Origin: a virus
Lineage: Duplodnaviria > Heunggongvirae > Uroviricota > Caudoviricetes
Virus record (IMG/VR): IMGVR_UViG_3300046318_000589
Strand: one strand, 5' to 3'
Length of the DNA: 64,000 nt
Every line of letters begins with the position of its first letter. Within the stretch, counting starts at the first letter, position 1. The notes under the pieces were generated by a model that was not told the DNA's origin, searched no databases, and worked only from the letters and a program-made list of their open reading frames with translations. Shown piece by piece: positions 8,464-57,141 of the stretch. Position numbers and translations under genes: made by a program.

Positions 8464-10311
8464 TTAGGAAAAACCTGTTATTGGGGTGGTTTGATACGAA
8501 ATCGACCCCAAGCCACCACCACCAACAGCTACAGCATCAATCTCACCAATAGTAGAAATCTCATCACTGCCGATCCTAAGGAGCTGATTAAATTTAGGAT
8601 TTAAATCTAAAGAACCTGGACGCAAATAAACCCTTATTTCATCAGTAACATCAGGTGTAAAATTCTTCAATACTATAAATCCTCTACTTTTAATCAAATA
8701 TCCCACATCAGTTAATAATGTTAATATTTCATTATTCACTTTTCTATAGAGGAATAATTGTCTTTTATCAATATCATTTGTTGGCTTATCGCCTAGAAAA
8801 TATGTTTCCCCATTTATAACGATTGGGGTGGATGATACGGTAAATTCTGTGGAATTTGTATCGAATGATGCGTTGGTAAAGCTCAATTCAAAATAATTTT
8901 TATTATTATTCACGGGTGTTATAATTTTATACATTAAACTACTTACTACGTTTGATGTAATTGATGGATTTGATGCGTCAATTAATGTTAATAAATTTGA
9001 ATAACGAAACACCCCACTAAATTTTTGTAATACAGTATTATTATAATTCATTACAACTGCATATATTAAATTATTCAAGTCAAGTATTGAAAGGGAAGTA
9101 TTATTTGAATTATATTTATAATCAATTTTAAGACTGATATTTGTATAATCGGGGTTTACTATTACGGGTGTTATTGTTCCAACCTGTTTAGGTTTTAAAA
9201 TACGGTTAATTATTTCGTCTTTTTCTATGAGGGTTAAATTATCTCTTAAATATGGTTTGATTGATATGTATGTTTTACCATATTCAGGTGTGGGTAAATT
9301 CTCCCCACCATATACAGTAATTGTTTCAATGTCATCGAATTGGTTGGATATAATTGCAAGATAATCTGTTTCAGTAACACATCTATCTTGAGCAGTAAAT
9401 AATCTTTTACTATTAAAGCGGATTGTTTCAATATCTTCTCTATCTAAACCACTTGCGGATATTGCCACCACAGATAGGGTAATGTCATTATTACCCCCAA
9501 TCGCATCAGATATGGAGAATGTCTTTGCACCATTCACTTCCAATCCCTTAGTTGAAATATATTGTGCATGAATGACGTTATTATTTTCTAATTTCTTTCC
9601 CATAACATCATCACCAAATGATATTTGGAATAGTCCGTCATAATTTTCATCAATAAAATAAATTTGCGAATCAATATTAATTTCCCGTAAACTTGTGTAT
9701 CTTGTATAAACAACTGAATTTAACGCTGAATCATGCTCCTTTACTGTTATCAATAATGTGTTGGTGTCTATATTATAATCAGGAATAACAAATACAGGAT
9801 AAGTATCTCTATCATCATATACAAAATATGTATCCTTTAAAACGCCCTGTACAATTTCAATATTAGTAAAGCGGAATTTTCCGTCCAATGATTTACTTGA
9901 TGAATAACTTTGATTTGTTACAAATGGATATTCCGTATTGTTTATTGTTGTTGTAAAGCGTGTACCTTTTGGTAGAATTAATGTATTTGAAACGCCTATT
10001 GGATTATTAACGGTTATATTTACTACAGCTTTTGACGCTATTTTTGAACGAGGTTTATACCCTAGAGCAGATGCACGAGTAACAACATTCCCCCTAAGTT
10101 GTGCTGATTCTATATTTGTTTCGTTAAAGTTAATATAAGCATTAAGAGCCATAATATGTGTGGAATAACTAAGCGTATCAAGTAAAATGTTGAGGTTTGA
10201 CCCTTCAAAATTAAAATCTTGATAAGTGCTTTTACTGGAGAGATATTGTTTGAAAGATTCCTTTATCTCAGAAAAGTCAAGTTTTTTAGGGTCAATTCTT
10301 GTTTTAGCCAT
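8464..10311 (-). CDS. baseplate wedge subunit, T4 gp6-like
   Basis: KQYLSS...DFNFEGSNLNILLDTLSYST and RCVTETDYLAIIS match T4 gp6 blocks (DYDFEGSRLNVLCDLLAYNT and RCVTATDYDTFVS). Length is 615 aa. Confidence 0.75.
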   Translation of the reverse strand: MAKTRIDPKKLDFSEIKESFKQYLSSKSTYQDFNFEGSNLNILLDTLSYSTHIMALNAYINFNETNIESAQLRGNVVTRASALGYKPRSKIASKAVVNITVNNPIGVSNTLILPKGTRFTTTINNTEYPFVTNQSYSSSKSLDGKFRFTNIEIVQGVLKDTYFVYDDRDTYPVFVIPDYNIDTNTLLITVKEHDSALNSVVYTRYTSLREINIDSQIYFIDENYDGLFQISFGDDVMGKKLENNNVIHAQYISTKGLEVNGAKTFSISDAIGGNNDITLSVVAISASGLDREDIETIRFNSKRLFTAQDRCVTETDYLAIISNQFDDIETITVYGGENLPTPEYGKTYISIKPYLRDNLTLIEKDEIINRILKPKQVGTITPVIVNPDYTNISLKIDYKYNSNNTSLSILDLNNLIYAVVMNYNNTVLQKFSGVFRYSNLLTLIDASNPSITSNVVSSLMYKIITPVNNNKNYFELSFTNASFDTNSTEFTVSSTPIVINGETYFLGDKPTNDIDKRQLFLYRKVNNEILTLLTDVGYLIKSRGFIVLKNFTPDVTDEIRVYLRPGSLDLNPKFNQLLRIGSDEISTIGEIDAVAVGGGGLGSISYQTTPITGFS

Positions 10312-10410
10312 ATATTATAATCTTTATGATAATTAGCAATTATTTTTACCTTTACAAACATTAGTTTTTATGTTATTTTATAAAAAATTAAACAATTATA
10401 GGAACATATT

Positions 10411-11397
10411 ATGAAAAACGGTATTTTTATTGGTCGGTTCTCCCCCCTCCACGAAGGTCATTATAGTTTGATAACAAGGGCTATTGAAAAATACAGTATT
10501 GATAAACTATATATTGGTATTGGTAGTGCAAACATTTCTGGAACTATTAAGAATCCCATGACTGTTTTTGAAAGAGAAAGCTATATTAAACAATTTTTTA
10601 TTCATAAGGGGGATATTTTTAACCTAGAAAAATTGTCATTTGAGTATATAGATGATTCTTATAATGAAGAACGTTGGCTATATTACATTGATAAAAAAAT
10701 AAAAGATTATAAAATTGATTATTTATTTTATCATGCAAAAAAAGATGGCTCAAGTTCATGGGTGGAAAATGTTTATTGTAAAAATGTTATTGATATTGAA
10801 CCAATTACAGATATATCAGCAACACAAATTAGACAATCTATCATTGACAATCCTCTCGTGGAAAACTATTTTTACGACTTCAATCCATATAGGGAGTATG
10901 TAAAATTTATAAATGATTATAATTCTAAATTTACCCATCCATACTGCAACAAAACAACTCATGTAACTGTTGATTTACTAATAAGAACAATAGATAATAA
11001 CCATAATAATGCTATTGTATTAATTAAACGAAATAAAGGCTTGGGTAGCGGTAAATATGCTTTAATTGGGGGGTTTGTTGAACCACATGAAACTTGTCTT
11101 GATGCAGTGATTAGAGAGTGTTACGAGGAAACAGGAATTATTATCCCTAAACAATTAATAGATGATGAATCAAAAGTATTTGATGCTCCAAATAGAAGTG
11201 ATAGAGGACGTATCATCACCCATGTTTATCAATGTTATTTGGAGTATTATAAATTGTTGGACATTATAAATAATTTTAAACCTAACGATGAAGTATCTGA
11301 AATAAAAATTGTATCTGAAGGAGAATTTAATTCAAATATTAAATATAACTCGTTTGAAGACCATTCTCTATTAGTCGATTATTGTATGAATTGGTAA
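10411..11397 (+). CDS. natV: bifunctional NMN adenylyltransferase / Nudix hydrolase (NatV/NadM-Nudix)
   Basis: The N-terminal GRFSPLHEGH matches the nucleotidyltransferase (H/T)xGH motif. The C-terminal Nudix box is GGFVEPHETCLDAVIRECYEETGI. Confidence 0.85.
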   Translation: MKNGIFIGRFSPLHEGHYSLITRAIEKYSIDKLYIGIGSANISGTIKNPMTVFERESYIKQFFIHKGDIFNLEKLSFEYIDDSYNEERWLYYIDKKIKDYKIDYLFYHAKKDGSSSWVENVYCKNVIDIEPITDISATQIRQSIIDNPLVENYFYDFNPYREYVKFINDYNSKFTHPYCNKTTHVTVDLLIRTIDNNHNNAIVLIKRNKGLGSGKYALIGGFVEPHETCLDAVIRECYEETGIIIPKQLIDDESKVFDAPNRSDRGRIITHVYQCYLEYYKLLDIINNFKPNDEVSEIKIVSEGEFNSNIKYNSFEDHSLLVDYCMNW

Positions 11398-11401
11398 AAT
11401 T

Positions 11402-11902
11402 ATGAGTTATTGGTCTCAAATATCAGGATTAATTGTCGTCAGTGGATTTTTTGACATCAAAATCATTAATAAAAACTCTCCTTTTGGTAGCGAGGGTGGG
11501 TTGGATTTTACTATAAACAGCTCCATAACAAACGATTATGGCACAAGTTATAGCAATAAACACCCTCAAGGAAAATCATATTTAAAATCAGAAATGTTCA
11601 CCAATATATCATTTTCTGGAAATTTGAGAGATTTTGAATCTGATAAAATCGTAAGAGTTGAAAAATGGTTAAATGGAATAGCACAATATTTTACTAAATT
11701 AAGTGATACTAATAAATATAAATATTTTAATGATGGTAAGGATTATCATCCTGAAAAACTAATGCCAATATTGTGTGATGTGAATATAAGAGTTTATAAT
11801 CGAGATTTATTAGTACATTTCTATCTTGATGAATCCTTTAAAGACAACACCACCATATACGAAATCTATAAAAGAGAAATCATAGAAAAGGAAATTATAT
11901 GA
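11402..11902 (+). CDS. hypothetical protein
   Basis: ORF of 166 aa, translationally coupled to natV. Confidence 0.45.
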   Translation: MSYWSQISGLIVVSGFFDIKIINKNSPFGSEGGLDFTINSSITNDYGTSYSNKHPQGKSYLKSEMFTNISFSGNLRDFESDKIVRVEKWLNGIAQYFTKLSDTNKYKYFNDGKDYHPEKLMPILCDVNIRVYNRDLLVHFYLDESFKDNTTIYEIYKREIIEKEII

Positions 11903-12129
11903 AACACAACCTATTATTAAACAGTGATGCTTACAAACATTCGCACAAAGATATGCTAGATAATGACATAGCATATATGAATAGTTATCTTGAATCTAGG
12001 GGAGGAACATTTAATAAAGTTTATTTCTTTGGGTTACAATATATCTTAAAAGAATATTTAACTACACCAATAACCCAAGCAGACCTTGATTATGCTTTTC
12101 CTATCCTCGATACAATAGGAACTGGATAG
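11899..12129 (+). pseudogene. nadV: NAMPT (NadV) N-terminal fragment, truncated by IS insertion
   Basis: NSDAYKHSHK...VYFFGLQYILKEYL aligns to NAMPT residues about 15-95 (DSYKVTHYKQ...FYGLQYILNKYL). The frame runs straight into the IS end, which supplies the TAG stop. Confidence 0.75.
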
Positions 12130-12149
12130 TTACAAATTTCTATGAAAAA

Positions 12150-13376
12150 TCAAGAAACTTGTTTTAGATGTAAACATCTTGGGTGAACTACAACACCCTC
12201 TATTTCATTCTTATTTTGGAATAATCCTGAAATTGCCTTTCTCATAATATTAAACGCACCGTTTAAATCAGAGTTTATTAATCTTCCATCCGAAGCACGA
12301 AACATTCCACGTTTAATTCTTTTACCTTTATATGTTTCATGTTTCTTGACATCTTCTAAGTCAAGAAAACTACACTTACTTGTATAAGATTCTTCGTGCT
12401 TGTTTACTACTATCCCAACTAATTCACATTTATAAGTTATCATTTTAACAAATGTATCATGGGGTATGTTTACAAAATTTTGATTATTCTTACTACCAAT
12501 ATTGATTTCTTGTTTTTGGTTAATGTTTTTCCCAATAATTAAATTAGTAACATCATTGGAAACTAAATGATTAACCAATAATCGACTTGCTTTATGCAAA
12601 TAATCGTTTATTTTATTGTTACGCTTAAATGTAAGCTTTTCTATGGATAATGAACTTTTCTTCCCTCCCTTTAATTTAATTTGAAGTTTTGCTTTCTTTT
12701 TATTATAGAACTGGTTCATTGATTTTAATGGATTGCCGTTAATAATAAATGGATTTTTCAAATCTGAGAAAGCAACAGTTGCTAAGTTTTTTAAACCTAA
12801 GTCAATAGAAGCTATATTTCCAACATCCTCTTTAAATGGGGTAATTTCTTTATTATACACAACCTCCACAACATAATGTGATTTCCTAGGTACTACCCTG
12901 ACTTGAGCTATATCGTTAAAATTTTCTATTTTACTTTTAATTCTAACATCACATCCTGAGAGTTTAATATATCCTTTTTTAAACTCTGTTTTTGAAATCG
13001 CTTGATTAGTAAATATTGTTACAAATCTTCCATCTGTTTTATCTAGGTAGCCAGGTATTTTCGGTTTACCTAAATATTTCTTTGGATTTTTCTTATAATC
13101 ATTATTTGCTTTAAAAAAACTTACAAAATTTTTATCAAGAACTTTTAATGTTTGTTGTACAACTTTAGCAGGTAATAATGAATAGCATTCCTTATATTTA
13201 GTTTTTAATTTCTTTTCAACTGAATAATAATTTAAATATTTTTCATTTTTTATAAATTCCTGTCTTATTAAGAAAAGTCCCATATTATAAATATTCTTAG
13301 ATTGAAAACATAATTCATCTAAAGACTTAAATGTCTTATTTGATTTCTTTATAATATGTTTCTCTACTAATTGCAT
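12150..13376 (-). CDS. tnpB: TnpB (OrfB, RuvC-like RNA-guided nuclease family)
   Basis: 408 aa with a RuvC-like split (SIDLGLKNLA ... E ... CxxC zinc finger ... NSDLNGAFNI). A hairpin AGATG-TTTA-CATCT lies at the 3' end. Confidence 0.85.
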   Translation of the reverse strand: MQLVEKHIIKKSNKTFKSLDELCFQSKNIYNMGLFLIRQEFIKNEKYLNYYSVEKKLKTKYKECYSLLPAKVVQQTLKVLDKNFVSFFKANNDYKKNPKKYLGKPKIPGYLDKTDGRFVTIFTNQAISKTEFKKGYIKLSGCDVRIKSKIENFNDIAQVRVVPRKSHYVVEVVYNKEITPFKEDVGNIASIDLGLKNLATVAFSDLKNPFIINGNPLKSMNQFYNKKKAKLQIKLKGGKKSSLSIEKLTFKRNNKINDYLHKASRLLVNHLVSNDVTNLIIGKNINQKQEINIGSKNNQNFVNIPHDTFVKMITYKCELVGIVVNKHEESYTSKCSFLDLEDVKKHETYKGKRIKRGMFRASDGRLINSDLNGAFNIMRKAISGLFQNKNEIEGVVVHPRCLHLKQVS

Positions 13377-13945
13377 GATAATTCTTGTATAAGTTTTTCA
13401 GTTTTACGTTTGGTTCGTCTTAGTCCGTATAATCGTGCAGTGAATGAAGTTATGATAGAAACAAAATCTTCCATTAAATCTTCTTTAATATTTTCTGGTG
13501 GGTTAATTATCTCAATACGCCTATTATCATTTGCCATAAGTTTCTCAATATAATTTAAACCAAATCTACAGAATCTATCTGAATGTTCAACAACTATAAC
13601 ATTTATATTTCTATTAGTCAATAACTTTTCTAGTTTAGGTCTTTTATCATTTAACCCAGAACCAATTTCACAGACAGCCTGCTCAACAATATATCCTTTA
13701 GCACTACAATAATCTAAAAGTCTATTCTTTTGTTTTTCTAAATTATCTTTGTTTTCAGATGATGACACTCTTGCATATATAGCAACTTTATTTATCGTAT
13801 CATTATCTTCTTCCACAACAAAGTTCAAACCTGTTGTTAATTTTTCAATTTTGATAAGACCTTTATAAAACCAGTTCCAAACAGTCCTCACAGTAACACC
13901 ATGCTTTTTAGCATAGTCAGATAACTTTAATATTTTTCTTGACAT
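13367..13945 (-). CDS. tnpA: IS607-type TnpA serine recombinase with N-terminal MerR-like HTH
   Basis: Catalytic YARVSS motif. HTH segment LSDYAKKHGVTVRTVWNW. It overlaps the tnpB start. Confidence 0.85.
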   Translation of the reverse strand: MSRKILKLSDYAKKHGVTVRTVWNWFYKGLIKIEKLTTGLNFVVEEDNDTINKVAIYARVSSSENKDNLEKQKNRLLDYCSAKGYIVEQAVCEIGSGLNDKRPKLEKLLTNRNINVIVVEHSDRFCRFGLNYIEKLMANDNRRIEIINPPENIKEDLMEDFVSIITSFTARLYGLRRTKRKTEKLIQELSCN

Positions 13946-14042
13946 TTACTTCCTTTCTTTATATAATTAGCTAATGTTGTTTTATGAAAAATTACATTAT
14001 TTTTTCATAATATTTCATAAGAAAATAAGAAGTTATTTAATA

Positions 14043-14798
14043 CCTGCCCTACAATTATTGATTGATTATTATAATTACCTACCCACTAATCCTATTAGCG
14101 TAAGAGCGTCTGAGCATAGCATCATGTGTCAACGAGGACGTTTAGGTGAACATGATATTGCTAGAAATATTGTATTATCACACCCCGATAAAATCACATC
14201 TATTGTAATTGATGCGTACAACGATGAAAAATTCTTGGATTTTATTGGCACTGAATTAAAAGAAGATATTAAGAAAAGAACAGCACCCCTGATTATAAGA
14301 CCTGATAGTAAGACACCGATCGAAGCAATTATGATGTGCTTTAATAAATTGGAATATTATTTTGGTTCAACATTTAACTCTAAAGGGTATAAAGTTCTAC
14401 CACCATATATCCGTATTATTCAAGGAGATGGTATCAATATTGATTCTATTGATGAAATATTAATACAGTTAGTCGATAATAAAATATCCATTGATAATGT
14501 TATTTTCGGTATGGGAGGTGCGTTGTTGCAAAAAATTGATAGAGATACCCAAAAATTTGCAATCAAATGTAGTCAAGTAACATTAAAAGATGGTACTACA
14601 AGAAATGTTTTCAAAGACCCTATTGGTGATAAGGGTAAGAAGTCTAAATCAGGTAAACTGGCATTAATTTATGATGATGGTTATCACACAATGAGAATAC
14701 AAGAAATTCGAGGAAAAGAAAATTTATTGAAATTAGTTTATAAAAACGGTAAACTAATGAACGAACAATCATTTCCATTCAAGGTAACGTCAAACTAA
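14043..14798 (+). pseudogene. nadV: NAMPT (NadV) C-terminal fragment
   Basis: LLIDYY..PISVRASEHS...IIRPDSKTP...KGYKVLPPYIRIIQGDGINIDSIDEI...FGMGGALLQKIDRDTQKFAIKCSQV...NVFKDPIGD..KSKSGKLAL aligns to NAMPT residues about 225-430. Residues about 95-225 are missing. Confidence 0.8.
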
Positions 14799-14805
14799 AA
14801 AAACT

Positions 14806-14840
14806 TGACAAACGTCATATTATATATTATAATAAATCTG
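14806..14840 (+). promoter_or_regulatory. consensus sigma70 promoter (TTGACA, 17-nt spacer, TATAAT)
   Basis: Perfect -35 and -10 hexamers with a 17-nt spacer, upstream of the 14880 ORF. Confidence 0.55.
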
Positions 14841-14879
14841 TAGAAGCTAAAATTTCTACATTTTTATGAAGATTATTTT

Positions 14880-15134
14880 ATGCCATATATAAAACCAACA
14901 GACCGACCAAACCTTGACGATATTATATCTACTTTAGATATATTTGAACTTGATGTGGGGGATATTAATTATCTGGTAACAAAGTTACTGAAGGAATATA
15001 TAAGTATTCATGGGGAAAATTATGAAAATTATAATTCTCTTGTGGGTGTACTTGAATGTATTAAGCAGGAGTTTTATCGGAGGCAGATCGCACCGTATGA
15101 AGATATAAAAATTCGGCAGAACGGTGATGTCTGA
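14880..15134 (+). CDS. hypothetical protein
   Basis: ORF of 84 aa. Confidence 0.4.
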   Translation: MPYIKPTDRPNLDDIISTLDIFELDVGDINYLVTKLLKEYISIHGENYENYNSLVGVLECIKQEFYRRQIAPYEDIKIRQNGDV

Positions 15135-15468
15135 AAATTTAAAATGGTATCGTTATGATATGGATAACTATCAGAACTTCTTCCGAACGAATCTTCCAAT
15201 AAAAGATAAACCTTTAACTATTTACCACATAGAGAAACATGATAAATTTACTTACCTTGACAACATATATTCTTTTGTATTATGTTTGGATGACACCGAT
15301 AATTTCTTTAAAGAAAATTCAGATTACCATTTAAGAAATCCCAAATACCCATCAAGAACAGTAGATTTTCTTGGTAATGACGGATTGGTGGAATCTTATT
15401 TTTTAAGAGATGATAAAATAGATTGTTTAATATGCGAAATTGTTAAAAATAGAAAGGAAAGAGTTTAA
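15124..15468 (+). CDS. hypothetical protein
   Basis: ORF of 114 aa that overlaps its neighbours. Confidence 0.4.
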   Translation: MMSENLKWYRYDMDNYQNFFRTNLPIKDKPLTIYHIEKHDKFTYLDNIYSFVLCLDDTDNFFKENSDYHLRNPKYPSRTVDFLGNDGLVESYFLRDDKIDCLICEIVKNRKERV

Positions 15469-15662
15469 TGGAAGAAAAATTTGTCATAACAAAAGAACAA
15501 CTTTTGGACTTTATTGAGGCTTCAATTAAAGTGAGAGCTTACGAGAGAATGCCAAGCTATAATAGGGTTTTACTTGATTATCTTCTCGATGAATGGATAA
15601 ATAGTTTTAGAGATGAAGCGTTAAATCGACTTGGAAATTACGAACAATTACCACAAAGTTAA
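15468..15662 (+). CDS. hypothetical protein
   Basis: ORF of 64 aa. Confidence 0.35.
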   Translation: MEEKFVITKEQLLDFIEASIKVRAYERMPSYNRVLLDYLLDEWINSFRDEALNRLGNYEQLPQS

Positions 15663-15667
15663 AATAA

Positions 15668-16549
15668 TTAAATTGATGGTAACGGTTTACTTATGATCGT
15701 ACCGCTTGGATTACCCTGTGCTTTAAAAAAATCAGGTAGGGGGGTTGAAGTTATATTATCGGATACGTTAAGATTTTCTAAAAAACCCCCAACACTTTTT
15801 AATGTACTAGAAACAGCGTCAGTTAAGTCCCCAAACATTTCACTGATACTATATTCCTCAAAATCATCATAAGCAAAAGTAACGTTATATGTTACATAAG
15901 CGTTCATTTCACTTTCATTAAATACCATTTCAGATTGTGTTATGGGAAAAGCCCCTTTTATTTTTACGACATAATTGGGAATATTATTATCATCACAACA
16001 TACGATAAAAGCATCTCTTGCATATTGGTTTTTGTATTTCACCCTATTTGTTTTACGATCAACGATAGATTTTTCCCACGTCTTAAACATTCTTGGAATA
16101 AAATAATCATTCGTAACGATAAAACTTATACTAAATTCCGTATTATTAAAACCATTTACCATAGTTTGATTATGTTTTTCAAGAGAATAATTAAACGTGT
16201 TTAAATTGCTTGATGGTATTGATACGGATTCACAAAAAATACCAATATCCCTTGGATCATCTAAAAAACTTTGAACATACCCATTACTTAAACCGTATGC
16301 AATAGACATAGCATTTTGATTAAATAAATTATAATCGGGGGTTTTCATTATAACAGAAAATCTATTAGTACGAGCAATAGATCCGTGACGATTAATACCT
16401 GCTTTTAAATCTTCAGCAGTGTTTCCAAGGATTGTTGCTGTAACTTTTCCCGCAGCTTTTGTTAGATTCCTTAATCCTGAATCTGTAAAATCAGTCAGTC
16501 TGTTAAGCCCAACGGAATTTGCTAGACCTCCAAGGCGGGGGATACTCAT
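15668..16549 (-). CDS. baseplate tail-tube cap/initiator, gp48/gp54-like
   Basis: The N-terminal ARTNRFSVIMKTP resembles the xRxNRFxV tube-family N-terminal motif. 293 aa. A CCTAATTATCATAAAAG motif lies upstream. Confidence 0.4.
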   Translation of the reverse strand: MSIPRLGGLANSVGLNRLTDFTDSGLRNLTKAAGKVTATILGNTAEDLKAGINRHGSIARTNRFSVIMKTPDYNLFNQNAMSIAYGLSNGYVQSFLDDPRDIGIFCESVSIPSSNLNTFNYSLEKHNQTMVNGFNNTEFSISFIVTNDYFIPRMFKTWEKSIVDRKTNRVKYKNQYARDAFIVCCDDNNIPNYVVKIKGAFPITQSEMVFNESEMNAYVTYNVTFAYDDFEEYSISEMFGDLTDAVSSTLKSVGGFLENLNVSDNITSTPLPDFFKAQGNPSGTIISKPLPSI

Positions 16550-16571
16550 AATTTGTTATCTTTTATGATAA

Positions 16572-17207
16572 TTAGGTTAATGATTTTCTAATATAATCAT
16601 TCCACACAGAACTATCACTAGCACCTTTTTGCCATTGTGCGGTTGGCGTTGTTAATGCTATATCCATATATTTTAAAGGGATACAATAAAAATTGGTCTG
16701 CACCTGCGATAAAAGATATTTTTTGTAGGAAAAACCAAATCCATTATTTTCAAGCAATCCTTTCAAAGCGTAATAATCACCAACCCCAGTAAATTTATTA
16801 ACATTATTATCCATATTCCAATAATTGTATTTTTCTATTAATTTTTGCATTATACGAAATCTAACAGTTAAAGGTAGATAATGGAAATTTATTCCATCCA
16901 TGTAGATTCGACCATTTTCCGTCCATTTGTTTATAATTAATGTCATAGGATAAGCATCAAAATATTTTAAACTCTCCGTTATTGCTTCATATTGAAAATA
17001 AACTAACATACCACTTTGAACTTGAGAAATATCTAATAATTCACTATCCTTAGCGAAACCTGGTGATTTTCTCAGACTAGACCGTAAAAGCTTTATTCTC
17101 TTAATAAAAAAATTGAAACTATCAATGGTTCTAGGGCGTAGCCCTGCATTTGATGCTTGTTGACGGAGCTTGTATAAAATCGAGGTCTTTTCACTTATAT
17201 CTACCAT
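16572..17207 (-). CDS. hypothetical baseplate-associated protein
   Basis: 211 aa, co-directional with the gp48/54-like gene. Confidence 0.35.
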   Translation of the reverse strand: MVDISEKTSILYKLRQQASNAGLRPRTIDSFNFFIKRIKLLRSSLRKSPGFAKDSELLDISQVQSGMLVYFQYEAITESLKYFDAYPMTLIINKWTENGRIYMDGINFHYLPLTVRFRIMQKLIEKYNYWNMDNNVNKFTGVGDYYALKGLLENNGFGFSYKKYLLSQVQTNFYCIPLKYMDIALTTPTAQWQKGASDSSVWNDYIRKSLT

Positions 17208-17214
17208 ACCTTAA

Positions 17215-17892
17215 TTAGAGTATAAATGTCCACTGATACCCTTTATGTGATTTACTTTTACCGATACAACATTTTGAAACAGTGCTAAAATCGAACCCGT
17301 CTAATTTTGTTGCATTAACTGATGGGTATTCCTTTATAAGGACATCATCTTTATATTGACCAACTCTTTTCTTTGGTTTTGCATCACTCATTTTCTTTCT
17401 TGTTTCATCTGTATGTTTATATCCTAAACTATTTGTATTACCTTTATATGCGTCACTTATTTTCTTTCTTGTTTCATCCGTCCTTTTTTTACCCCTATTA
17501 CCATCACTCATTTTCTTTCTTGCTTCTTCAGTATGTTTATAACCAACAGAACCCTCTCCTCCTGCTGTCATATTCACTAAAGTACCAGTTCCTAAATCTC
17601 TTCTCCCATAAAGTAGAATAAACTCAACTTCTTTTCTATTTGCTTCCTCTTCTGATAAGCCCTCTATCATTATTTCTATTCTATATTCAGTTTTATTAAT
17701 CACATTATGCCAATGTGGATTACTACGGTGTGTATTTTTACTTCTTTCATATTTTCCATCAATATTAGTTCCTTTACCTATATAAAATACTTCATTTTTA
17801 TCTAAACGAATATGTCTGTATATGTAACAGAGTTTTTGTTCTTGATTATTTTTATTATTTATGGTACTATGACCATGTGGATTATTATCCAT
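17215..17892 (-). CDS. GIY-YIG homing endonuclease with NUMOD3 repeats (Seg/I-TevI-like), copy 1
   Basis: [19 protein letters not shown] (GIY-YIG), three TEEARKKMSD-type NUMOD3 repeats, and a C-terminal CCIGKSKSHKGYQW. The probable start is MDNNPHG at 17892; the ORF-track Met at 17922 lies inside the leader hairpin. Confidence 0.8.
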   Translation of the reverse strand: MDNNPHGHSTINNKNNQEQKLCYIYRHIRLDKNEVFYIGKGTNIDGKYERSKNTHRSNPHWHNVINKTEYRIEIMIEGLSEEEANRKEVEFILLYGRRDLGTGTLVNMTAGGEGSVGYKHTEEARKKMSDGNRGKKRTDETRKKISDAYKGNTNSLGYKHTDETRKKMSDAKPKKRVGQYKDDVLIKEYPSVNATKLDGFDFSTVSKCCIGKSKSHKGYQWTFIL

Positions 17893-17975
17893 GCTGATGT
17901 CCTCTCTGACGTTAGAACCCACAGATGTTTCAGCATCGTGGTGGGTATAATTTAATTAGCCTTTATTATAACATT
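17893..17975 (-). promoter_or_regulatory. conserved homing-endonuclease leader (GCTAATTA promoter motif plus hairpin)
   Basis: GGCTAATTAAATTATA followed by a CCCACCACGATG-N7-CATCTGTGGG hairpin, then an AGAGAGG Shine-Dalgarno sequence. It is paralogous to the leaders of three other GIY-YIG genes. Confidence 0.6.
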
Positions 17976-49234: not shown

Positions 49235-49452
49235 TTTATGACAATAATATATATCATTATGTTTTTGGGGTTTATCTCAATATCATTCCCTATGATTTTA
49301 GGATATTTATATCCCCATAAAATATGCAATAAAGAGTTGGTAATATCCATAATTAGCGGTGTAAATAAAAACTCATAATTAATTTAGTAAAATATAGAAA
49401 AGCCTTGAAAACTTTTCCTAATTACATTATAAGGTATAAAAAAGGATTGTCA

Positions 49453-50013
49453 ATGAAAAAAATATCACAGTACGCTAAAGAGTGTGGTCTTTCTTACAGA
49501 ACAATATGGAATAGATGTAAAGAAGGAATTATCCCATATCACAAAGATATTAAAGGGAATATTTTTATCTTAGATAATGTTACTAAGAAAAATGATGCTA
49601 TCATCTATGCAAGGGTTTCAAATAACAATAGAAAAGAATCATTAATAGAACAGCAAAAATTCTTAGAAACATACGCATCATCAAAAGACTATAACATAGT
49701 TGGAAGTTTTAAAGAATTGGCTAGTGGAATGAATGATGAAAGAAAAATATTATCGTCTATTTTAAAAAGAGATGATTGGAATGTATTGGTTGTTGAGAAT
49801 AAAGATAGATTAACAAGATTTGGGTTTAATTATATAAAGACATTACTTGAGAAAAATAACAAGAGAATAGAGGTTGTGAATATTACAGATGATGATAAAC
49901 ATGACATTATGACAGACCTTGTTTCTGTAATATATAGTTTCTCCGCAAGAATTTATGGCAAAAGAAAAGCTAAAAGAAAAGAACAAATAACTGAGTTTTT
50001 AAACGAAAAATAA
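49453..50013 (+). CDS. tnpA: IS607-type TnpA serine recombinase
   Basis: MKKISQYAKECGLSYRTIWN (HTH) and IYARVSN catalytic serine motif. The ORF-track start at 49405 is probably too far upstream. Confidence 0.8.
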   Translation: MKKISQYAKECGLSYRTIWNRCKEGIIPYHKDIKGNIFILDNVTKKNDAIIYARVSNNNRKESLIEQQKFLETYASSKDYNIVGSFKELASGMNDERKILSSILKRDDWNVLVVENKDRLTRFGFNYIKTLLEKNNKRIEVVNITDDDKHDIMTDLVSVIYSFSARIYGKRKAKRKEQITEFLNEK

Positions 50014-51230
50014 TGATATTAACAGAAAAACATCAATATAAGTTTAATCAAGAGATGGATGATATATGCTTCCATACGAAAAACGTATATAATAGTTGTT
50101 TGTATATCATACGACAACACTTCTTTGAAACAGGAAAATATATTGGTGTTTACGATCTTTATCATAAAATAACAAAAGAGCCTGTGTGGAAAGAAACACC
50201 TTTACCCAAAAGGGTTTTAAATCAAACAATGAAATTGGCAGATCAAAATTTTAAATCATTTTTTAAAGCATTTGCAAGTTACAAAAAGACCCCATCAAAA
50301 TTTAAAGCAAGACCTAAAATACCTAGCTATAAAGACAGTGTTAAAGGTAGATTTGTTGCAACTTATGAAAAAGGTGCTATAAATAAAAAAGATTTCAAAA
50401 AAGGATATATTAAACTTTCAGGCTCTAATGTTTTAATAAAAACAAAAGTTGAAAATTTTAGTGACATAAAAGAAGTTAAGGTAATTCCTACAATCTATGG
50501 GTTTGAGGTTCTTGTTGTATATGAAAAATTATCTAAATCCCTTAAAGAAAGTGGATTGATATGCTCCATTGATTTAGGATTAAATAATCTTGCAACAGGG
50601 GCTTTTATTAATGGACAACAGCCTTTTATTATTAATGGACGACCTTTAAAGTCTATTAATCAATATTATAATAAGGAAAAATCTAAAAAACAGAGTAATT
50701 TAACAGGAGGAATAAAAACAAGTAAGTCAATTAAAACACTTACGCACAAAAGAAACAATAAAATGAACGATTATTTGCATAAAGCAAGTCGATTATTGGT
50801 TAATCATTTAGTTTCCAATGATGTTAGCTGTCTTATAATAGGCAATAACAAGCAATGGAAGCAAGAAATCAATATTGGTAGTAAGAATAATCAAAATTTT
50901 GTAAACATACCACACAACAGATTTATAGATATGTTAAAATACAAATGTGAACTGGAGGGAATTTTAGTTACTACTACAGAAGAATCTTATACCTCCAAGT
51001 GCAGTTTCTTAGACCTCGAAGAGGTCAAAAAACATGAAACATATAAAGGTAAAAGAATTAAACGTGGAATGTTCAAAGCGTCAAACGGACGCATGATAAA
51101 TGCTGATGTTAATGGTGCGTATAACATTATGAGAAAAGTAATCCCCGAAGCGTTTACGCATGAGGGGATAGAGGGATTTGCAGTAATCCCATCGAGAATG
51201 TCAAGACATTCTCTTAAAATAGTGATATAG
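50013..51230 (+). CDS. tnpB: TnpB
   Basis: 405 aa, about 60% identical to TnpB-1 (SIDLGLNNLA, YTSKCSFLDLEEVKKHETYKGKRIKRGMF, DVNGAYNI). Confidence 0.85.
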   Translation: MILTEKHQYKFNQEMDDICFHTKNVYNSCLYIIRQHFFETGKYIGVYDLYHKITKEPVWKETPLPKRVLNQTMKLADQNFKSFFKAFASYKKTPSKFKARPKIPSYKDSVKGRFVATYEKGAINKKDFKKGYIKLSGSNVLIKTKVENFSDIKEVKVIPTIYGFEVLVVYEKLSKSLKESGLICSIDLGLNNLATGAFINGQQPFIINGRPLKSINQYYNKEKSKKQSNLTGGIKTSKSIKTLTHKRNNKMNDYLHKASRLLVNHLVSNDVSCLIIGNNKQWKQEINIGSKNNQNFVNIPHNRFIDMLKYKCELEGILVTTTEESYTSKCSFLDLEEVKKHETYKGKRIKRGMFKASNGRMINADVNGAYNIMRKVIPEAFTHEGIEGFAVIPSRMSRHSLKIVI

Positions 51231-51282
51231 TTTTCTATATTATTATGTACTGTATCCAATATATAATCATATCATTCAAACA

Positions 51283-55289: not shown

Positions 55290-55540
55290 AAAATTCCTAA
55301 TATATAAGGTAATTAGCGGGGATATTTAACATAAAAAAAGACCCAACAAATCAATGTGGGTCTTCCAATTAAAAATATTATATTTTTTAAAAGCCTTTTA
55401 TTAAACTTTTAATATCACAATGTACTCCAAAACAAACCATCATCAAAGCAAATATTAACGTAATTAAGGACATTCCATTATATAGGTATAATATAACTTC
55501 ATATATAATTATGAAAAATAAAGAAGAATCTATGAAAATT

Positions 55541-55575
55541 TACTTGACAAATATTTAACTTAAAGGTAATATATA
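55541..55575 (+). promoter_or_regulatory. sigma70-like promoter (TTGACA, 17-nt spacer, TAATAT) driving the solo tnpB
   Basis: Consensus -35 hexamer, 17-nt spacer, -10-like hexamer. Confidence 0.5.
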
Positions 55576-55579
55576 TTTT

Positions 55580-56794
55580 ATGATTATAACAAGAAGCAGT
55601 AAGCATTATATCGTTGACATGAACCAAGGGAAGCACCGCTCCCTTGGGCTTATGTACAACGTCTTAAAAGATGCTACTGCTTCGTTTGTTAAACAAATCA
55701 TTCACGGTAATTTACCTTTAAAGACTAATTTGTCAAGTAAAGTATTACCATCAGTTGTTGGTGTTTCGCCGTGTGGTAACGTAGTTACCATAAACGGCGG
55801 ACAATACAAGCAACTGATATATAAGACTGCAAGCGAAATCGTGCGTTCCAATCTTGACTACGTCAAGGGACGCACGTTTAAGCGTTATAAGAAACTTTAC
55901 GCTTATTTTAAAGAAAGAAACCGACAGGTTTCCTTTATTAATAAGCGTTACAAAGATTTAAAAATAAATTATTTAAAAAGAATTGATATAGACCTTAACA
56001 AGTTTTCAATAAACCTCGACGAGAGGTTTATTGACTTTAGTCAAGGTCATCACTTTGATAATTTTATAAGAATTAAAACTGTTTTCATGGATGACAAGCA
56101 CAAAAACCGCAGGGTTTTTGTGAATTGTCCCATTAAAAACCATAAACATTCCAATAAATTTAAGGAATGGACAAGAAAAAAGACCGTGAGGCTGTCGAAA
56201 GACAGTACGAACGGTCGTCTTTATTTATCTTTTACTTATGAGAAGAAGATAGAAGAAAAAGTAACCAATGGTCAAATAGGATTTGACATTGGTTACAAAA
56301 AGCTATTATCTTCTTCCGAGGGTAATCATTATGGTACGCATCTGCATGAAATATACGGACGACTAGCACGCAAAGAGCGTGGTAGTCGTAACTATACGCA
56401 GATGCTACATCATAAGAAAACAGAGATAAATAGGGTTATAAACGGCTTAAAAATCAATAACAACGACATCGTTGTGGAAGATTTAAAAGCCGTAAGATAT
56501 AAATCTAAGTTAAGTAGTAAACTTTTGAATAAGTTGCAATACTGGAGTTATGGACAGGTATTGACTAAGCTGGAATCATTAAGCCAAACGGAAGGTTTCC
56601 GTTTGGTTAAGATTGACCCAGCTTATACAAGTCAAACCTGTCATTTGTGTGGTACAATAGACAGAACCGCCCGAAAGGGCGAATTGTATGAGTGTACCAC
56701 TTGTGGGCTTACGATTGACGCAGACACAAATGCGTCAATCGTCATACTACAACGAGGAACGTATAGTTCCTCGACACAAAAACAAGTTTCTTGA
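55580..56794 (+). CDS. tnpB: solo TnpB-like RuvC nuclease with no adjacent tnpA
   Basis: GFDIGYKK (RuvC-I), a CHLCG...CTTCG zinc finger and DADTNAS (RuvC-III). The C-terminus KQVS* is the same as TnpB-1. The 3' end shares 38 identical nt with the IS copy-1 right end. Confidence 0.75.
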   Translation: MIITRSSKHYIVDMNQGKHRSLGLMYNVLKDATASFVKQIIHGNLPLKTNLSSKVLPSVVGVSPCGNVVTINGGQYKQLIYKTASEIVRSNLDYVKGRTFKRYKKLYAYFKERNRQVSFINKRYKDLKINYLKRIDIDLNKFSINLDERFIDFSQGHHFDNFIRIKTVFMDDKHKNRRVFVNCPIKNHKHSNKFKEWTRKKTVRLSKDSTNGRLYLSFTYEKKIEEKVTNGQIGFDIGYKKLLSSSEGNHYGTHLHEIYGRLARKERGSRNYTQMLHHKKTEINRVINGLKINNNDIVVEDLKAVRYKSKLSSKLLNKLQYWSYGQVLTKLESLSQTEGFRLVKIDPAYTSQTCHLCGTIDRTARKGELYECTTCGLTIDADTNASIVILQRGTYSSSTQKQVS

Positions 56795-56816
56795 TTTTTC
56801 ATAGAAATTTGTAACT
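56735..56816 (+). ncRNA. candidate omegaRNA/right-end scaffold of the solo TnpB
   Basis: An 8-bp hairpin CGAGGAAC-GTATA-GTTCCTCG is followed by AACAAGTTTCTTGATTTTTCATAGAAATTTGTAACTAT, which is identical to the copy-1 right end. This call is an inference from TnpB biology. Confidence 0.4.
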
Positions 56817-57141
56817 ATGAATGAATTGATAAAAATAAAAACACAACATTTAAATTTCTTACAAACTGTAAAAAATACTTACCTACCATCCATTTTTGAT
56901 GATTATCCTCACATATCAATGATAAATTATCAGATGAATTATCGTCATCAGATGACAATTTCATAATCCAATAACCACCCATCAACATATATAATATTAC
57001 CCCACCAAGCATAATTAAGCTCTCCCCAATAGAATAACCGTAAATTATAGGAATAACAAGGCAACCTAACCCTAACTCTTTCATATTGGTAGCTATATAC
57101 TTTTGTATTCTTTTGTTTTGTAATGTTTTAAATATTGTCAT
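56815..57141 (-). CDS. small two-transmembrane membrane protein (holin-like)
   Basis: 108 aa with two hydrophobic helices. Confidence 0.35.
   Translation of the reverse strand: MTIFKTLQNKRIQKYIATNMKELGLGCLVIPIIYGYSIGESLIMLGGVILYMLMGGYWIMKLSSDDDNSSDNLSLICEDNHQKWMVGKYFLQFVRNLNVVFLFLSIHS

What the first reader, a model, noticed from the sequence alone, without database searches (positions are those of the whole stretch)
11899..14798. IS607-type transposon splits the phage NAMPT gene (nadV) and removes about 130 codons, while natV stays intact
The fragment at 11899-12129 matches NAMPT residues about 15-95. The ORF at 13974-14798 matches residues about 225-430 from codon ~24 (about 14043) onward. 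A TnpA (YARVSS serine recombinase) plus TnpB element sits between them, and its right end supplies the TAG that stops the N-fragment. The middle of NAMPT is absent, so this is an insertion with an accompanying deletion and not a simple interruption. NadV plus NatV form the phage NAD+ salvage pair thought to counter NAD-depleting defences, so this phage has apparently lost that capacity to a selfish element. An IS607 element inside a T4-like phage auxiliary gene is unusual.
Basis: partly seen in the sequence, partly recalled or inferred. Interest (0 to 1): 0.7.

Follow-up and report, generated by a model that had tools for sequence, protein, structure and literature searches.

The report
IS607 transposon disrupts phage nadV gene
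A 1.9-kb jumping gene carrying a serine transposase and a TnpB nuclease sits inside the NAD-salvage gene nadV of an uncultured T4-like phage, and about 373 bp of that gene are missing, so the gene is dead; this is an ordinary kind of event, but the element's target site and the way the deletion formed are unusual.

Summary
ORF 11899-12129 is the N-terminus of NAMPT. ORF 13974-14798 is its C-terminal two thirds, starting at about 14040. Between them, on the minus strand, lies a complete IS607-family element (12126-14042). It carries tnpA (a serine recombinase that passes the NCBIfam IS607 cut-off) and tnpB.

No other part of the 64-kb window encodes the missing NAMPT core. Against the closest uninterrupted relative (L032), 124 codons plus 1 nt are absent, including the GTDT motif. 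Excision of the element would therefore not restore the gene. natV (10411-11397) is an intact ORF.

New details from this work:
- Comparison with relatives, and a 40-nt repeat elsewhere in the window, fix the ends of the element. They are flank-G|TAT…AACTAT|flank, not the GG core of characterised IS607 elements.
- Both nadV junctions lie on such TAT sites.
- In a related element family, two independent deletions next to the right end stop exactly at GTAT.

I conclude the deletion was made by the element itself, most likely by TnpA recombining the right end with a nearby target-like site.

The disrupted allele appears in at least 23 contigs from about ten samples, and no element-free allele was found. 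The window also holds a second autonomous IS607-like element and a non-autonomous element with matching ends.

This is a new member of a known kind and is of moderate interest.

The parts
10411..11397 (+). natV: bifunctional NMN adenylyltransferase / Nudix hydrolase, an intact 328-aa ORF.
   Evidence: Pfam CTP_transf_like covers residues 5-142 and NUDIX covers 196-306. Alignments to the NCBIfam bifunctional NMNAT/Nudix models span nearly the whole protein, for example residues 5-318 against profile positions 13-335 of 346, but score below the curated cut-offs.
11402..11902 (+). Conserved 166-aa ORF of unknown function between natV and nadV.
   Evidence: It has no Pfam, NCBIfam or PHROG match. 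It is 53% identical to the ORF in the same position upstream of nadV in L032.
11899..12129 (+). nadV N-terminal fragment, a 76-aa ORF. Sequence derived from nadV runs to 12125. ATA at 12126-12128 is the triplet shared with the right end (RE) of the element, and G12129 completes the TAG stop.
   Evidence: Pfam NAMPT_N, E = 2e-14. It aligns to PDB 8igz residues 19-87. It is homologous to L032 NadV residues 1-76, up to GTG, where L032 continues with Tyr.
12106..12125 (-). Inferred guide of the TnpB ωRNA: the first 20 nt of flank after the RE, 5'-CCAGUUCCUAUUGUAUCGAG, antisense to nadV codons 70-76.
   Evidence: This is an inference from the known IS605/IS607 architecture, in which the guide begins at the RE boundary (PMC10690162; PMC10711439), combined with the RE boundary fixed. 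It was not tested.
12126..14042 (-). IS607-family element 'IS-A', 1917 bp counting the TAT triplet at both ends. On its own strand it reads flank ...GCAGG|TAT-TAAATAAC...(tnpA, tnpB)...TTTGTAAC-TAT|CCAGTT... flank.
   Evidence: Left end (LE): similarity to L027 (TnpB 90% identical) and to element IS-C starts at GG|TAT. RE: relatives in seven different flanks all end at ...GTAACTAT. An exact 40-nt copy of the RE ends at the same base at 56818. Four Logan contigs stop at 12155, which is 30 nt inside the element, as expected from a k=31 graph branching at 12125|12126.
12126..12246 (-). Putative ωRNA scaffold overlapping the 3' end of tnpB and the RE. It is closed by a helix between UAUGAGAAA and UUUUUCAUA.
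   Evidence: The last 70 nt or so are 98-100% identical among three copies that are otherwise 80-90% identical. dS falls from about 0.74 to 0.27 in the last 144 nt of tnpB. The minimum-free-energy fold has z = -2.6. RNAalifold on 5 sequences gives 37 pairs, 8 of them with compensatory changes. There is no Rfam match.
12150..13376 (-). tnpB, 408 aa. It belongs to the clade with a relocated RuvC glutamate (E_alt) and no zinc finger.
   Evidence: Pfam OrfB_IS605 plus Cas12f1-like TNB. NCBIfam guided_TnpB, 192 bits. D192, E328 (the E-x6-C pattern) and D370 are invariant in 32 aligned sequences. The canonical glutamate position is G-K-N, and only one Cys lies in the TNB region. dN/dS against L027 and L028 is 0.08-0.09.
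13367..13945 (-). tnpA, 192 aa: an IS607-type serine transposase with an N-terminal DNA-binding part, a C-terminal catalytic domain and the YARVSS motif.
   Evidence: NCBIfam transpos_IS607 equivalog, 176 bits against a cut-off of 110, covering profile positions 2-187 of 187. Pfam Resolvase covers residues 54-178. dN/dS is 0.04-0.05.
13946..14042 (-). LE of IS-A, with repeated TATGAAA / TTTTCATA motifs.
   Evidence: It is 95% identical to the L027 LE and recognisably similar to the LE of IS-C at 55487.
13974..14798 (+). nadV C-terminal fragment. The 274-aa ORF starts inside the LE of the element. Sequence derived from nadV starts at 14040-14043 (Ile-Pro, ATA CC).
   Evidence: Pfam NAPRTase, E = 1e-29. 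It aligns to PDB NAMPT residues 222-468. It is homologous to L032 from residue 201 (IPGLKLL) onward.

Best explanation
An autonomous IS607-family insertion sequence (IS-A, 12126-14042, minus strand) sits inside nadV of an uncultured T4-like phage. It carries a serine transposase TnpA, a TnpB nuclease and a presumed ωRNA.

This subfamily does not use the GG core of characterised IS607 elements. It recombines at a TAT triplet (core dinucleotide TA or AT) preceded by G in the target. On the element's strand the layout is flank-G|TAT-IS-AACTAT|flank.

The left end (LE) is joined at the ATA-CC of Ile201-Pro202 of nadV. The right end (RE) is joined at the GG-ATA of Gly76-Tyr77. The 373 bp between those two target-like sites are gone.

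The most likely history has two steps:
1. A simple insertion at one site, probably Ile201. This guess rests on analogy with relatives that keep the LE flank and lose RE-side DNA.
2. A TnpA-catalysed intramolecular recombination between the RE and the second G-TAT site in the same orientation. This would excise the intervening segment, giving an 'adjacent deletion'.

The result is a dead nadV. The catalytic middle, including the GTDT motif, is lost, the two remnants are out of frame with each other, and excision cannot restore the gene. natV is left without its partner, so NARP2-type NAD+ reconstitution is presumably lost.

By analogy with studied TnpBs, the TnpB-ωRNA complex now carries a guide matching nadV codons 70-76. 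It could cut uninterrupted nadV alleles of co-infecting relatives and drive copying of the element into them.

What is shown: the anatomy, family membership, boundaries, missing segment, presence across samples and purifying selection on both element genes. What is inferred: the order of events, TnpA as the agent of the deletion, ωRNA function and the phenotypic consequence.
For: - Identity of the four ORFs.
- No NAMPT core elsewhere in the window.
- Deletion mapped against L032.
- LE boundary, from three IS-A-type LEs and three independent LE flanks of the P0176 family, all ending G|TAT.
- RE boundary, from seven different flanks in the P0176 family, the exact 40-nt RE copy at 56779-56818 and the Logan contig ends at 12155.
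- The intact relative L032 has ATAC (GTAT on the element's strand) exactly at codon 201, where the window's LE junction lies.
- Site-specific deletions next to the RE occur in relatives. L039 lacks 63 nt present in L043, and L040 lacks 941 nt present in L045. LE flanks are 845/846 identical and both deleted segments end in GTAT. The background GTAT frequency is 0.0037, so the chance of both is about 1e-5.
- Both element genes are under purifying selection (dN/dS 0.04-0.10).
- The RuvC D-E(alt)-D residues are invariant.
- ωRNA-like conservation and covariation.
- The same structure is present in 23 contigs from about ten samples.
- Background on IS607 and TnpB mechanism: PMC6188088, PMC10690162 and PMC10711439.
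- Background on NARP2: bioRxiv 10.1101/2024.02.11.579819.
Against: - No element-free or deletion-free allele of this phage was found, so the ancestral sequence at the two sites is inferred from a relative only about 60% identical. That relative has GGT TAT at Gly76-Tyr77, not the GGA TAC needed for a full GTAT there.
- Adjacent deletions by IS607 transposases were not found in the literature searched.
- The same product would arise from two insertions followed by recombination between the copies.
- The excised circle would be only about 373 bp, which is small for synapsis.
- The TnpB clade lacks zinc-finger cysteines, and no activity data exist for it.
- The ωRNA evidence rests on five sequences, three of them nearly identical.
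- The core being TA or AT, and the G being a requirement, rests on about six LE and nine RE junctions, not on an experiment.
Confidence: 0.65

Rival explanations
1. Two copies, then recombination. IS-A inserted independently at both TAT sites of nadV in the same orientation, either in one genome or in two co-infecting genomes. Homologous recombination between the copies, which is very active in T4-like phages, or TnpA acting on the copies, then removed one copy together with the 373 bp between them.
For: This gives exactly the observed product, with both junctions at canonical target-like sites. The phage carries several related elements, which shows repeated colonisation. IS607 elements transpose through an excised circle that can reinsert locally (PMC4058570).
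Against: It needs two hits in the same orientation within 373 bp. In the P0176 relatives, five variants share one LE flank and differ only on the RE side. That pattern is expected for nested one-ended deletions. Under this rival one would also expect variants with shifted LE flanks, and none was seen. No contig shows the tandem intermediate.
Confidence: 0.25
2. Deletion first. nadV had already lost 373 bp by slippage between the two short ATA(C) repeats, and the element later inserted into the GTAT created at the deletion joint.
For: Both end points carry the same ATA triplet, so a microhomology-mediated deletion is possible in principle. The nearest relative's nadV carries an independent 19-nt deletion, which shows the gene decays without any IS.
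Against: The element would have had to choose the deletion joint itself. nadV alone has about 19 GTAT/ATAC sites and the genome has far more. The analogous element-adjacent deletions ending at GTAT in relatives show that the element family produces this pattern.
Confidence: 0.07
3. The locus is still functional. The element is spliced out like an IStron, or the two NAMPT pieces work as a split enzyme.
For: Both fragments are open reading frames without internal stops. IS607-type IStrons that splice out of host mRNA are known (PMC10690162).
Against: There is no group I intron or any other Rfam match in 11000-15500, even at E <= 1. The element lies antisense to nadV. About 124 codons, including the GTDT region, are absent from the whole window. 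The two remnants are in different frames across the joint.
Confidence: 0.02
4. Assembly chimera. A bacterial IS was joined to phage sequence by the assembler.
For: Contigs of this phage often break inside the element.
Against: Both junctions are crossed by many independent contigs from two assembly pipelines and about ten samples. The breaks are explained by k-mers shared with IS-B and by the 40-nt RE repeat within the same window.
Confidence: 0.01

Closest known systems
IS607 / IS1535 / CboIStron-type IS607-family elements (serine TnpA plus TnpB)
   Same: tnpA encodes a small serine recombinase with the DNA-binding domain at the N-terminus, and it overlaps a downstream tnpB. There are no terminal inverted repeats and no target-site duplication. 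The same short core sequence sits at both junctions. Subterminal repeats are present, and a conserved RNA-like region overlaps the 3' end of tnpB and the RE (PMC6188088, PMC10690162).
   Different: The junction core is TAT, preceded by G on the LE flank, instead of GG, (G)GG or TGGG. There is no group I intron. The host is a lytic-type T4-like phage. The element is associated with a precise deletion of adjacent DNA.
E_alt ('rearranged glutamate') TnpB clade related to Fanzor (Yoon et al. 2023, PMC10711439)
   Same: The canonical RuvC-II glutamate is absent (G-K-N in its place). An invariant glutamate lies seven residues before the first Cys of the TNB region (the E-x6-C pattern), and the clade is associated with IS607-type TnpA.
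   Different: The CxxC...CxxC zinc finger that is part of the published search pattern is missing in this whole clade, where only one Cys remains. RuvC-I is D-L-G, not D-P-G.
Phage NARP2 / KVP40 NadV-NatV NAD+ reconstitution pair
   Same: natV (NMNAT-Nudix) and nadV (NAMPT) lie close together in a T4-like phage.
   Different: nadV is split and lacks its catalytic middle, so only natV is intact. A conserved 166-aa ORF of unknown function sits between the two genes.
IS200/IS605 TnpB elements in T4-related Campylobacter phages CP220/CPt10 (PMC2853527)
   Same: TnpB-carrying insertion sequences, several per genome, occur in virulent T4-related myoviruses.
   Different: Those are IS200/IS605 elements, either with a Y1 transposase or TnpB-only. 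No serine-transposase element and no disruption of an anti-defence gene is described there.
Classical adjacent deletions by intramolecular transposition (IS1, IS10, Tn3-type; from general knowledge)
   Same: One element end stays fixed, and DNA from that end to a nearby target site is lost.
   Different: Here the candidate enzyme is a serine recombinase working through a 2-bp crossover, so the deletion end points are exact core-sequence sites. This activity was not found described for IS607.

Membership tests
IS607 family insertion sequence | The transposase is a small serine recombinase with an N-terminal DNA-binding domain and a C-terminal catalytic domain. | tested here: met
   NCBIfam transpos_IS607 equivalog, 176 bits against a cut-off of 110, covering profile positions 2-187 of 187. 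Pfam Resolvase covers residues 54-178 of 192, and the YARVSS motif is present.
IS607 family insertion sequence | tnpB lies downstream of tnpA, co-oriented and overlapping it. | tested here: met
   tnpA 13367-13945 and tnpB 12150-13376 overlap by 10 nt on the minus strand. TnpB matches NCBIfam guided_TnpB at 192 bits against a cut-off of 100.
IS607 family insertion sequence | No terminal inverted repeats and no target-site duplication; the same short core sequence at both junctions. | tested here: met
   The ends are not inverted copies of each other; only subterminal TTTTCATA-type motifs recur. Only TAT is shared at both junctions.
IS607 family insertion sequence | The crossover or target dinucleotide is GG, as in IS607, IS1535, ISXfa1 and the CboIStron. 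| tested here: not met
   Junctions are G|TAT...AACTAT| in IS-A, IS-C, L027 and the P0176 relatives. There is no GG at the RE. GG is a property of the characterised members rather than of the family definition, so this marks a subfamily difference.
IS607 family insertion sequence | An ωRNA is encoded at the 3' end of tnpB and the RE, with its guide taken from the flank. | tested here: inconclusive
   There is excess nucleotide conservation and reduced dS at the 3' end, a fold z-score of -2.6 and 8 covarying pairs in a 5-sequence consensus. There is no Rfam family match and no expression data.
Active RNA-guided TnpB nuclease | An intact RuvC D-E-D triad. | tested here: met
   D192, E328 (in the relocated position) and D370 are invariant in 32 aligned sequences. 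The alignment to solved TnpB-like chains places D192 and D370 on the catalytic Asp motifs. Catalytic activity was not tested.
Active RNA-guided TnpB nuclease | A CxxC...CxxC zinc finger in the TNB domain. | tested here: not met
   Only Cys335 is present in that region, in IS-A and in IS-B. The Pfam TNB domain is still matched.
IStron (IS607/IS605 fused to a group I intron) | A group I intron in the sense orientation of the interrupted gene. | tested here: not met
   There is no Rfam match at E <= 1 in 11000-15500, and the element is antisense to nadV.
NARP2 (phage Nampt plus Nmnat NAD+ reconstitution) | A full-length NAMPT with its catalytic core. | tested here: not met
   Only NF006629 profile positions 3-69 and 206-454 of 465 are encoded. 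The GTDT column block is absent. No further piece exists in the window.
NARP2 (phage Nampt plus Nmnat NAD+ reconstitution) | An NMN adenylyltransferase (NatV) gene next to nadV. | tested here: met
   The 328-aa ORF has CTP_transf_like and NUDIX domains and aligns along its whole length to the bifunctional NMNAT/Nudix models. Its activity was not tested.

The most novel reading that the evidence does not exclude
This phage-borne IS607 subfamily uses a G-TAT target instead of GG. Its serine transposase also catalyses precise deletions between the right end of the element and nearby G-TAT sites. Combined with TnpB/ωRNA-guided cutting of uninterrupted alleles during co-infection, the element would act as a homing element that spreads a deleted, irreparable nadV allele through a T4-like phage population. 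That would be selfish-element-driven erosion of an anti-defence (NARP2) gene. The same genome also holds a non-autonomous element (IS-C) with matching ends and an unrelated TnpB, which would imply modular exchange of RNA-guided nucleases between IS607 shells that are mobilised in trans.
Probability: 0.3. Interest if true: 0.7.

Novelty: new member of a known kind. Interest (0 to 1): 0.5.

Why it matters
This is a natural knock-out of a phage counter-defence gene by a TnpB-carrying transposon. It is fixed in a wild phage population sampled many times, which suggests NARP2 can be dispensable or costly in that setting.

For transposon biology it offers testable leads:
- an IS607 lineage whose ends and targets carry TAT rather than GG;
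- sequence evidence, here and in relatives, for exact element-adjacent deletions;
- one phage genome holding two autonomous IS607-like elements plus a non-autonomous one that shares its ends with IS-A but carries an unrelated TnpB.

The compact TnpB clade, with a relocated glutamate and no zinc finger, and its presumed GTAT-type target-adjacent motif (TAM), may also interest genome-editing groups.

Tried and rejected
1. Closely related phages in GenBank: megablast of 9000-17500 found nothing. NAMPT relatives there are at most 44% identical.
2. IMG/VR: NAMPT relatives are at most 43% identical. Exact-pattern scans for the RE of the element, the nadV junction flank, the empty sites of P0176-type insertions and the P0176 RE all returned nothing.
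3. JGI metagenome contig collection: two scans, both empty. This phage's samples are apparently not in that collection.
4. Host identification through TnpB in species-representative genomes: only 43-56% identical hits in unrelated taxa. The host remains unknown.
5. IStron or group I intron: no Rfam match. Rejected.
6. NAMPT middle relocated elsewhere in the window: tblastn negative. Rejected.
7. Element-free alleles: the search of 5.8 billion proteins returned the junction ORF itself and nothing else above 61% identity. All contigs carrying the upstream 166-aa ORF run into the element.
8. Phage context of the P0176-family loci: PHROGs gave no hits for the neighbouring genes, so I do not claim those loci are phages. 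P0183 is a solo TnpB in a single context and gave no information on flanks. The crAss-like phage csAssE-Sib TnpB (50% identity) lacks recognisable GTAACTAT ends.
9. Apparent chimera L056 (IS-A joined to IS-B): this turned out to be 4 nt at a contig end.
10. Exact ends of IS-B: not resolved. The RE probably ends ...GTACTGTAT at 51255, and no LE was identified.

Full report
**What is there**

Between 10.4 and 14.8 kb the plus strand carries, in order:
- natV (10411-11397);
- a conserved 166-aa ORF (11402-11902);
- a 76-aa ORF (11899-12129);
- after a 1.9-kb block encoded on the minus strand, a 274-aa ORF (13974-14798).

The 76-aa ORF is the N-terminal domain of NAMPT:
- Pfam NAMPT_N, E = 2e-14;
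- residues 19-87 of Xanthomonas NAMPT;
- NCBIfam NF006629 profile positions 3-69 of 465.

The 274-aa ORF matches the NAMPT catalytic domain from about its residue 24:
- Pfam NAPRTase, E = 1e-29;
- PDB NAMPT residues 222-468;
- profile positions 206-454.

The minus-strand block encodes two genes:
- A 192-aa serine recombinase. It passes the NCBIfam IS607-transposase equivalog cut-off (176 bits against 110) over the full profile.
- A 408-aa TnpB that overlaps it by 10 nt (guided_TnpB, 192 bits against 100).

tblastn with five longer NAMPT homologues finds no other NAMPT piece in the 64-kb window.

**It is real and fixed in the sampled populations**

The exact 274-aa junction ORF, whose first 22 or so residues are read from the left end of the element, lies on 23 contigs. 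These come from JGI and Logan assemblies of about ten samples, the longest being 146.7 kb. All contigs that carry the identical TnpB, or the upstream 166-aa ORF, show the same arrangement.

The search of 5.8 billion proteins found no NAMPT closer than 61% identity apart from this ORF. No element-free allele of this phage is therefore on record.

Four Logan contigs end at 12155, which is 30 nt inside the element. That is what a k=31 graph produces when the only branch is a repeat starting at 12126. An alternative allele at the junction would have stopped them at 12125.

**Size of the loss**

The nearest relative with an uninterrupted nadV is a 4.4-kb Logan contig, L032. It shares the orf166-nadV synteny, with 53% identity for the small ORF.
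- The window's N fragment is colinear with L032 NadV through ...AFPILDTIGTG (residues 1-76).
- The C fragment is colinear from IPALQLL (residue 201).

So 124 codons are missing, including the block that aligns with the GTDT motif and the preceding core strands. From my knowledge of NAMPT structures, this region holds the residues equivalent to human Phe193, Arg196 and Asp219. I did not test that here.

The two junction triplets occupy different codon phases: positions 3-1-2 at Gly76/Tyr77 and 1-2-3 at Ile201. The loss is therefore 373 bp, and even a precise excision would leave a frameshifted, truncated gene.

**Ends of the element**

I fixed the ends by comparison rather than by inspection.
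- Two short contigs carry copies with 90% and 87% identical TnpB (L027, L028).
- A family with 60% identical TnpB (P0176) occurs in several different contexts (L039-L048).

On the element's own strand, similarity between the window and L027 starts at GG|TATTA(A/T)ATAACTTC. In the P0176 family three independent left flanks end in G before TATCGTAAC. Seven different right flanks begin immediately after ...AAGTAACTAT. The window reads ...TTTGTAACTAT|CCAGTTCC.

Within the window, the last 40 nt of this right end recur exactly at 56779-56818 and again stop at ...GTAACTAT|GAATG.

The element is thus 12126-14042, bounded by TAT on both sides, with G on the left flank in six of six cases. Characterised IS607 elements recombine at GG (PMC6188088, PMC10690162, PMC10711439). 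This lineage evidently uses TA or AT within G-TAT. The T and A of the TAG that ends the N fragment belong to the shared triplet, and only the G comes from the element.

**How the deletion arose**

Both nadV junctions fall on target-like sites. On the element's strand the left junction is ...GCAGG|TAT. L032 has ATAC (GTAT in reverse complement) at exactly that codon. The right junction is TAT|CC, the reverse complement of GG-ATA. It would be a full GTAT if the lost Tyr77 codon was TAC; L032 has TAT there.

The P0176 relatives show that such structures recur.
- L039, L042 and L044 have the same left flank as L043 and L047 (845/846 identical) but lack 63 nt next to the right end.
- L040 lacks 941 nt that L045 has.
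- In both pairs the missing segment ends in GTAT, and the sequences are otherwise colinear (1386/1400 and 520/520 identical).
- GTAT occurs at a frequency of 0.0037 in these flanks, so two exact coincidences have a probability of about 1e-5.

A fixed left flank with nested, site-specific losses on the right side is what one-ended intramolecular recombination would give: the transposase pairs the right end with a nearby target in the same orientation.

I therefore favour this history for the window: insertion at Ile201, followed by a deletion from the right end to the Gly76/Tyr77 site.

Two other routes remain possible.
- Two insertions followed by recombination between the copies would give the same product. 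This is the main rival.
- A prior microhomology deletion followed by insertion exactly at its joint is possible but needs a coincidence.

I found no report of adjacent deletions by IS607 transposases.

**State of the element**
- tnpA and tnpB are full length and under strong purifying selection relative to L027 and L028 (dN/dS 0.04-0.10).
- TnpB has D192 and D370 in the RuvC motifs. It lacks the canonical glutamate (invariant G-K-N) but has an invariant glutamate seven residues before Cys335. This is the relocated E_alt pattern described for Fanzor-related IS607 TnpBs (PMC10711439).
- The zinc-finger cysteines are absent from the whole clade.
- The last 70 nt or so of tnpB plus the right end are 98-100% identical among copies that are otherwise 80-90% identical. 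Synonymous divergence drops about threefold there.
- The region folds better than shuffled sequence (z = -2.6).
- A five-sequence consensus gives a scaffold closed by UAUGAGAAA/UUUUUCAUA, with eight compensatory pairs.

This fits an ωRNA but is not proof, and Rfam has no match. If the architecture is that of studied elements, the guide is now the 20 nt antisense to nadV codons 70-76. It would target uninterrupted nadV alleles that carry GTAT at Tyr77.

**Biological reading**

NadV plus NatV form the NARP2 pathway, which rebuilds NAD+ and defeats Thoeris and DSR2 in experiments (bioRxiv 10.1101/2024.02.11.579819). Here natV is an intact ORF with both domains, while nadV cannot make a functional enzyme. 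Loss of the pathway is a reasonable inference.

Two things suggest the gene is dispensable in this lineage: the allele is fixed across samples, and L032 carries an independent 19-nt frameshifting deletion in its nadV. This agrees with the cost that the NARP2 paper proposes for PRPP consumption.

The phage is a distant T4 relative. It has gp6, gp2, gp5-lysozyme and T4 baseplate domains, and its gp6 is 33% identical to those of Methylophilales phage Melnitz and cyanomyoviruses. Its host is unknown.

**Context and novelty**

Relatives of this TnpB occur in only 39 of 50,697 phage records. These include crAss-like, Lak, Bacillus phage G, Nodularia, Twort-like and Helicobacter phages, and none of the 30 listed is T4-like. 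T4-related Campylobacter phages are known to carry IS200/IS605 TnpB elements (PMC2853527).

An IS disrupting a phage accessory gene is a known kind of event, and the element is a member of a known family. The noteworthy parts are:
- the non-GG core;
- the evidence for site-specific adjacent deletions;
- the density of related elements in this one genome, with a second autonomous IS607-like element at about 49.4-51.3 kb and a non-autonomous element at 55487-56818 that has IS-A-type ends around an unrelated, canonical TnpB.

I rate this a new member of a known kind, with moderate interest.

Noticed in passing
window 49405-51255 (+): A second, complete IS607-like element (IS-B). It has a serine TnpA (49405-50013, 43% identical to TnpA-A) and a TnpB (50013-51230, 59% identical to TnpB-A, about as distant from it as the P0176 family is). 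The right end probably finishes ...GTACTGTAT at 51255. The left end was not identified. It lies between a kinase/phosphatase-like gene and small ORFs.
   Followed up: partly
window 55487-56818 (+): A non-autonomous element (IS-C). Its left end begins AGG|TATAATATAACTTCATAT and resembles the left ends of IS-A and L027. It carries a 404-aa canonical TnpB (VVEDL glutamate, CxxC...CxxC zinc finger) with no detectable similarity to TnpB-A. The last 40 nt of its right end are identical to IS-A, including the stop codon. It has no tnpA. This suggests mobilisation in trans by TnpA-A and exchange of the nuclease cargo between elements.
   Followed up: partly
window 8389-8441 (+), in the 400-nt gap 8062-8463: A decayed relic, 94% identical over 53 nt, of the 3' end of tnpB-A and the proximal part of its right end. 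It lacks the terminal GTAACTAT. It lies between the T4 baseplate gene and gp6.
   Followed up: no
L032 1520-1545 (Logan SRR33769875), compared with window 14255-14290: The closest relative's nadV is uninterrupted but carries a 19-nt deletion that shifts the frame, so it is called as 278-aa and 173-aa ORFs. This is either an independent inactivation of nadV in the clade or an assembly error in a single contig.
   Followed up: partly
L033 4486-5000 (ENA ERZ25039529, 169-kb contig): Another phage-like contig has NAMPT split into 212-aa and 256-aa ORFs by a 515-nt, GC-rich insert that looks structured and has no ORF. The insert lies just after the GTDT motif, within a few codons of the window's left junction. 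It has no Rfam match at E <= 0.1. It may be an unrecognised intron or a miniature element.
   Followed up: partly
L048 (Logan ERR11570184) 201-779 and 2716-2949: A P0176-family IS607-like element splits a DUF723/DUF4379 gene. Fragments of the gene lie on both sides of the element, which appears to be a simple insertion.
   Followed up: no
window 17215-17922 (-): A homing-endonuclease-like ORF with NUMOD3 repeats lies next to the gp2-like gene. It is another selfish element in the same region.
   Followed up: no
L057 (JGI 3300046319), compared with window 10532-11397: A population variant of natV with a 9-nt in-frame deletion. The rest of the contig has no mismatches to the window.
   Followed up: no
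window 11402-11902 (+): The 166-aa ORF between natV and nadV is conserved in position and sequence in L032 (53% identity). It matches no Pfam, NCBIfam or PHROG family. It may be an unrecognised third component of the NAD+ cassette.
   Followed up: partly
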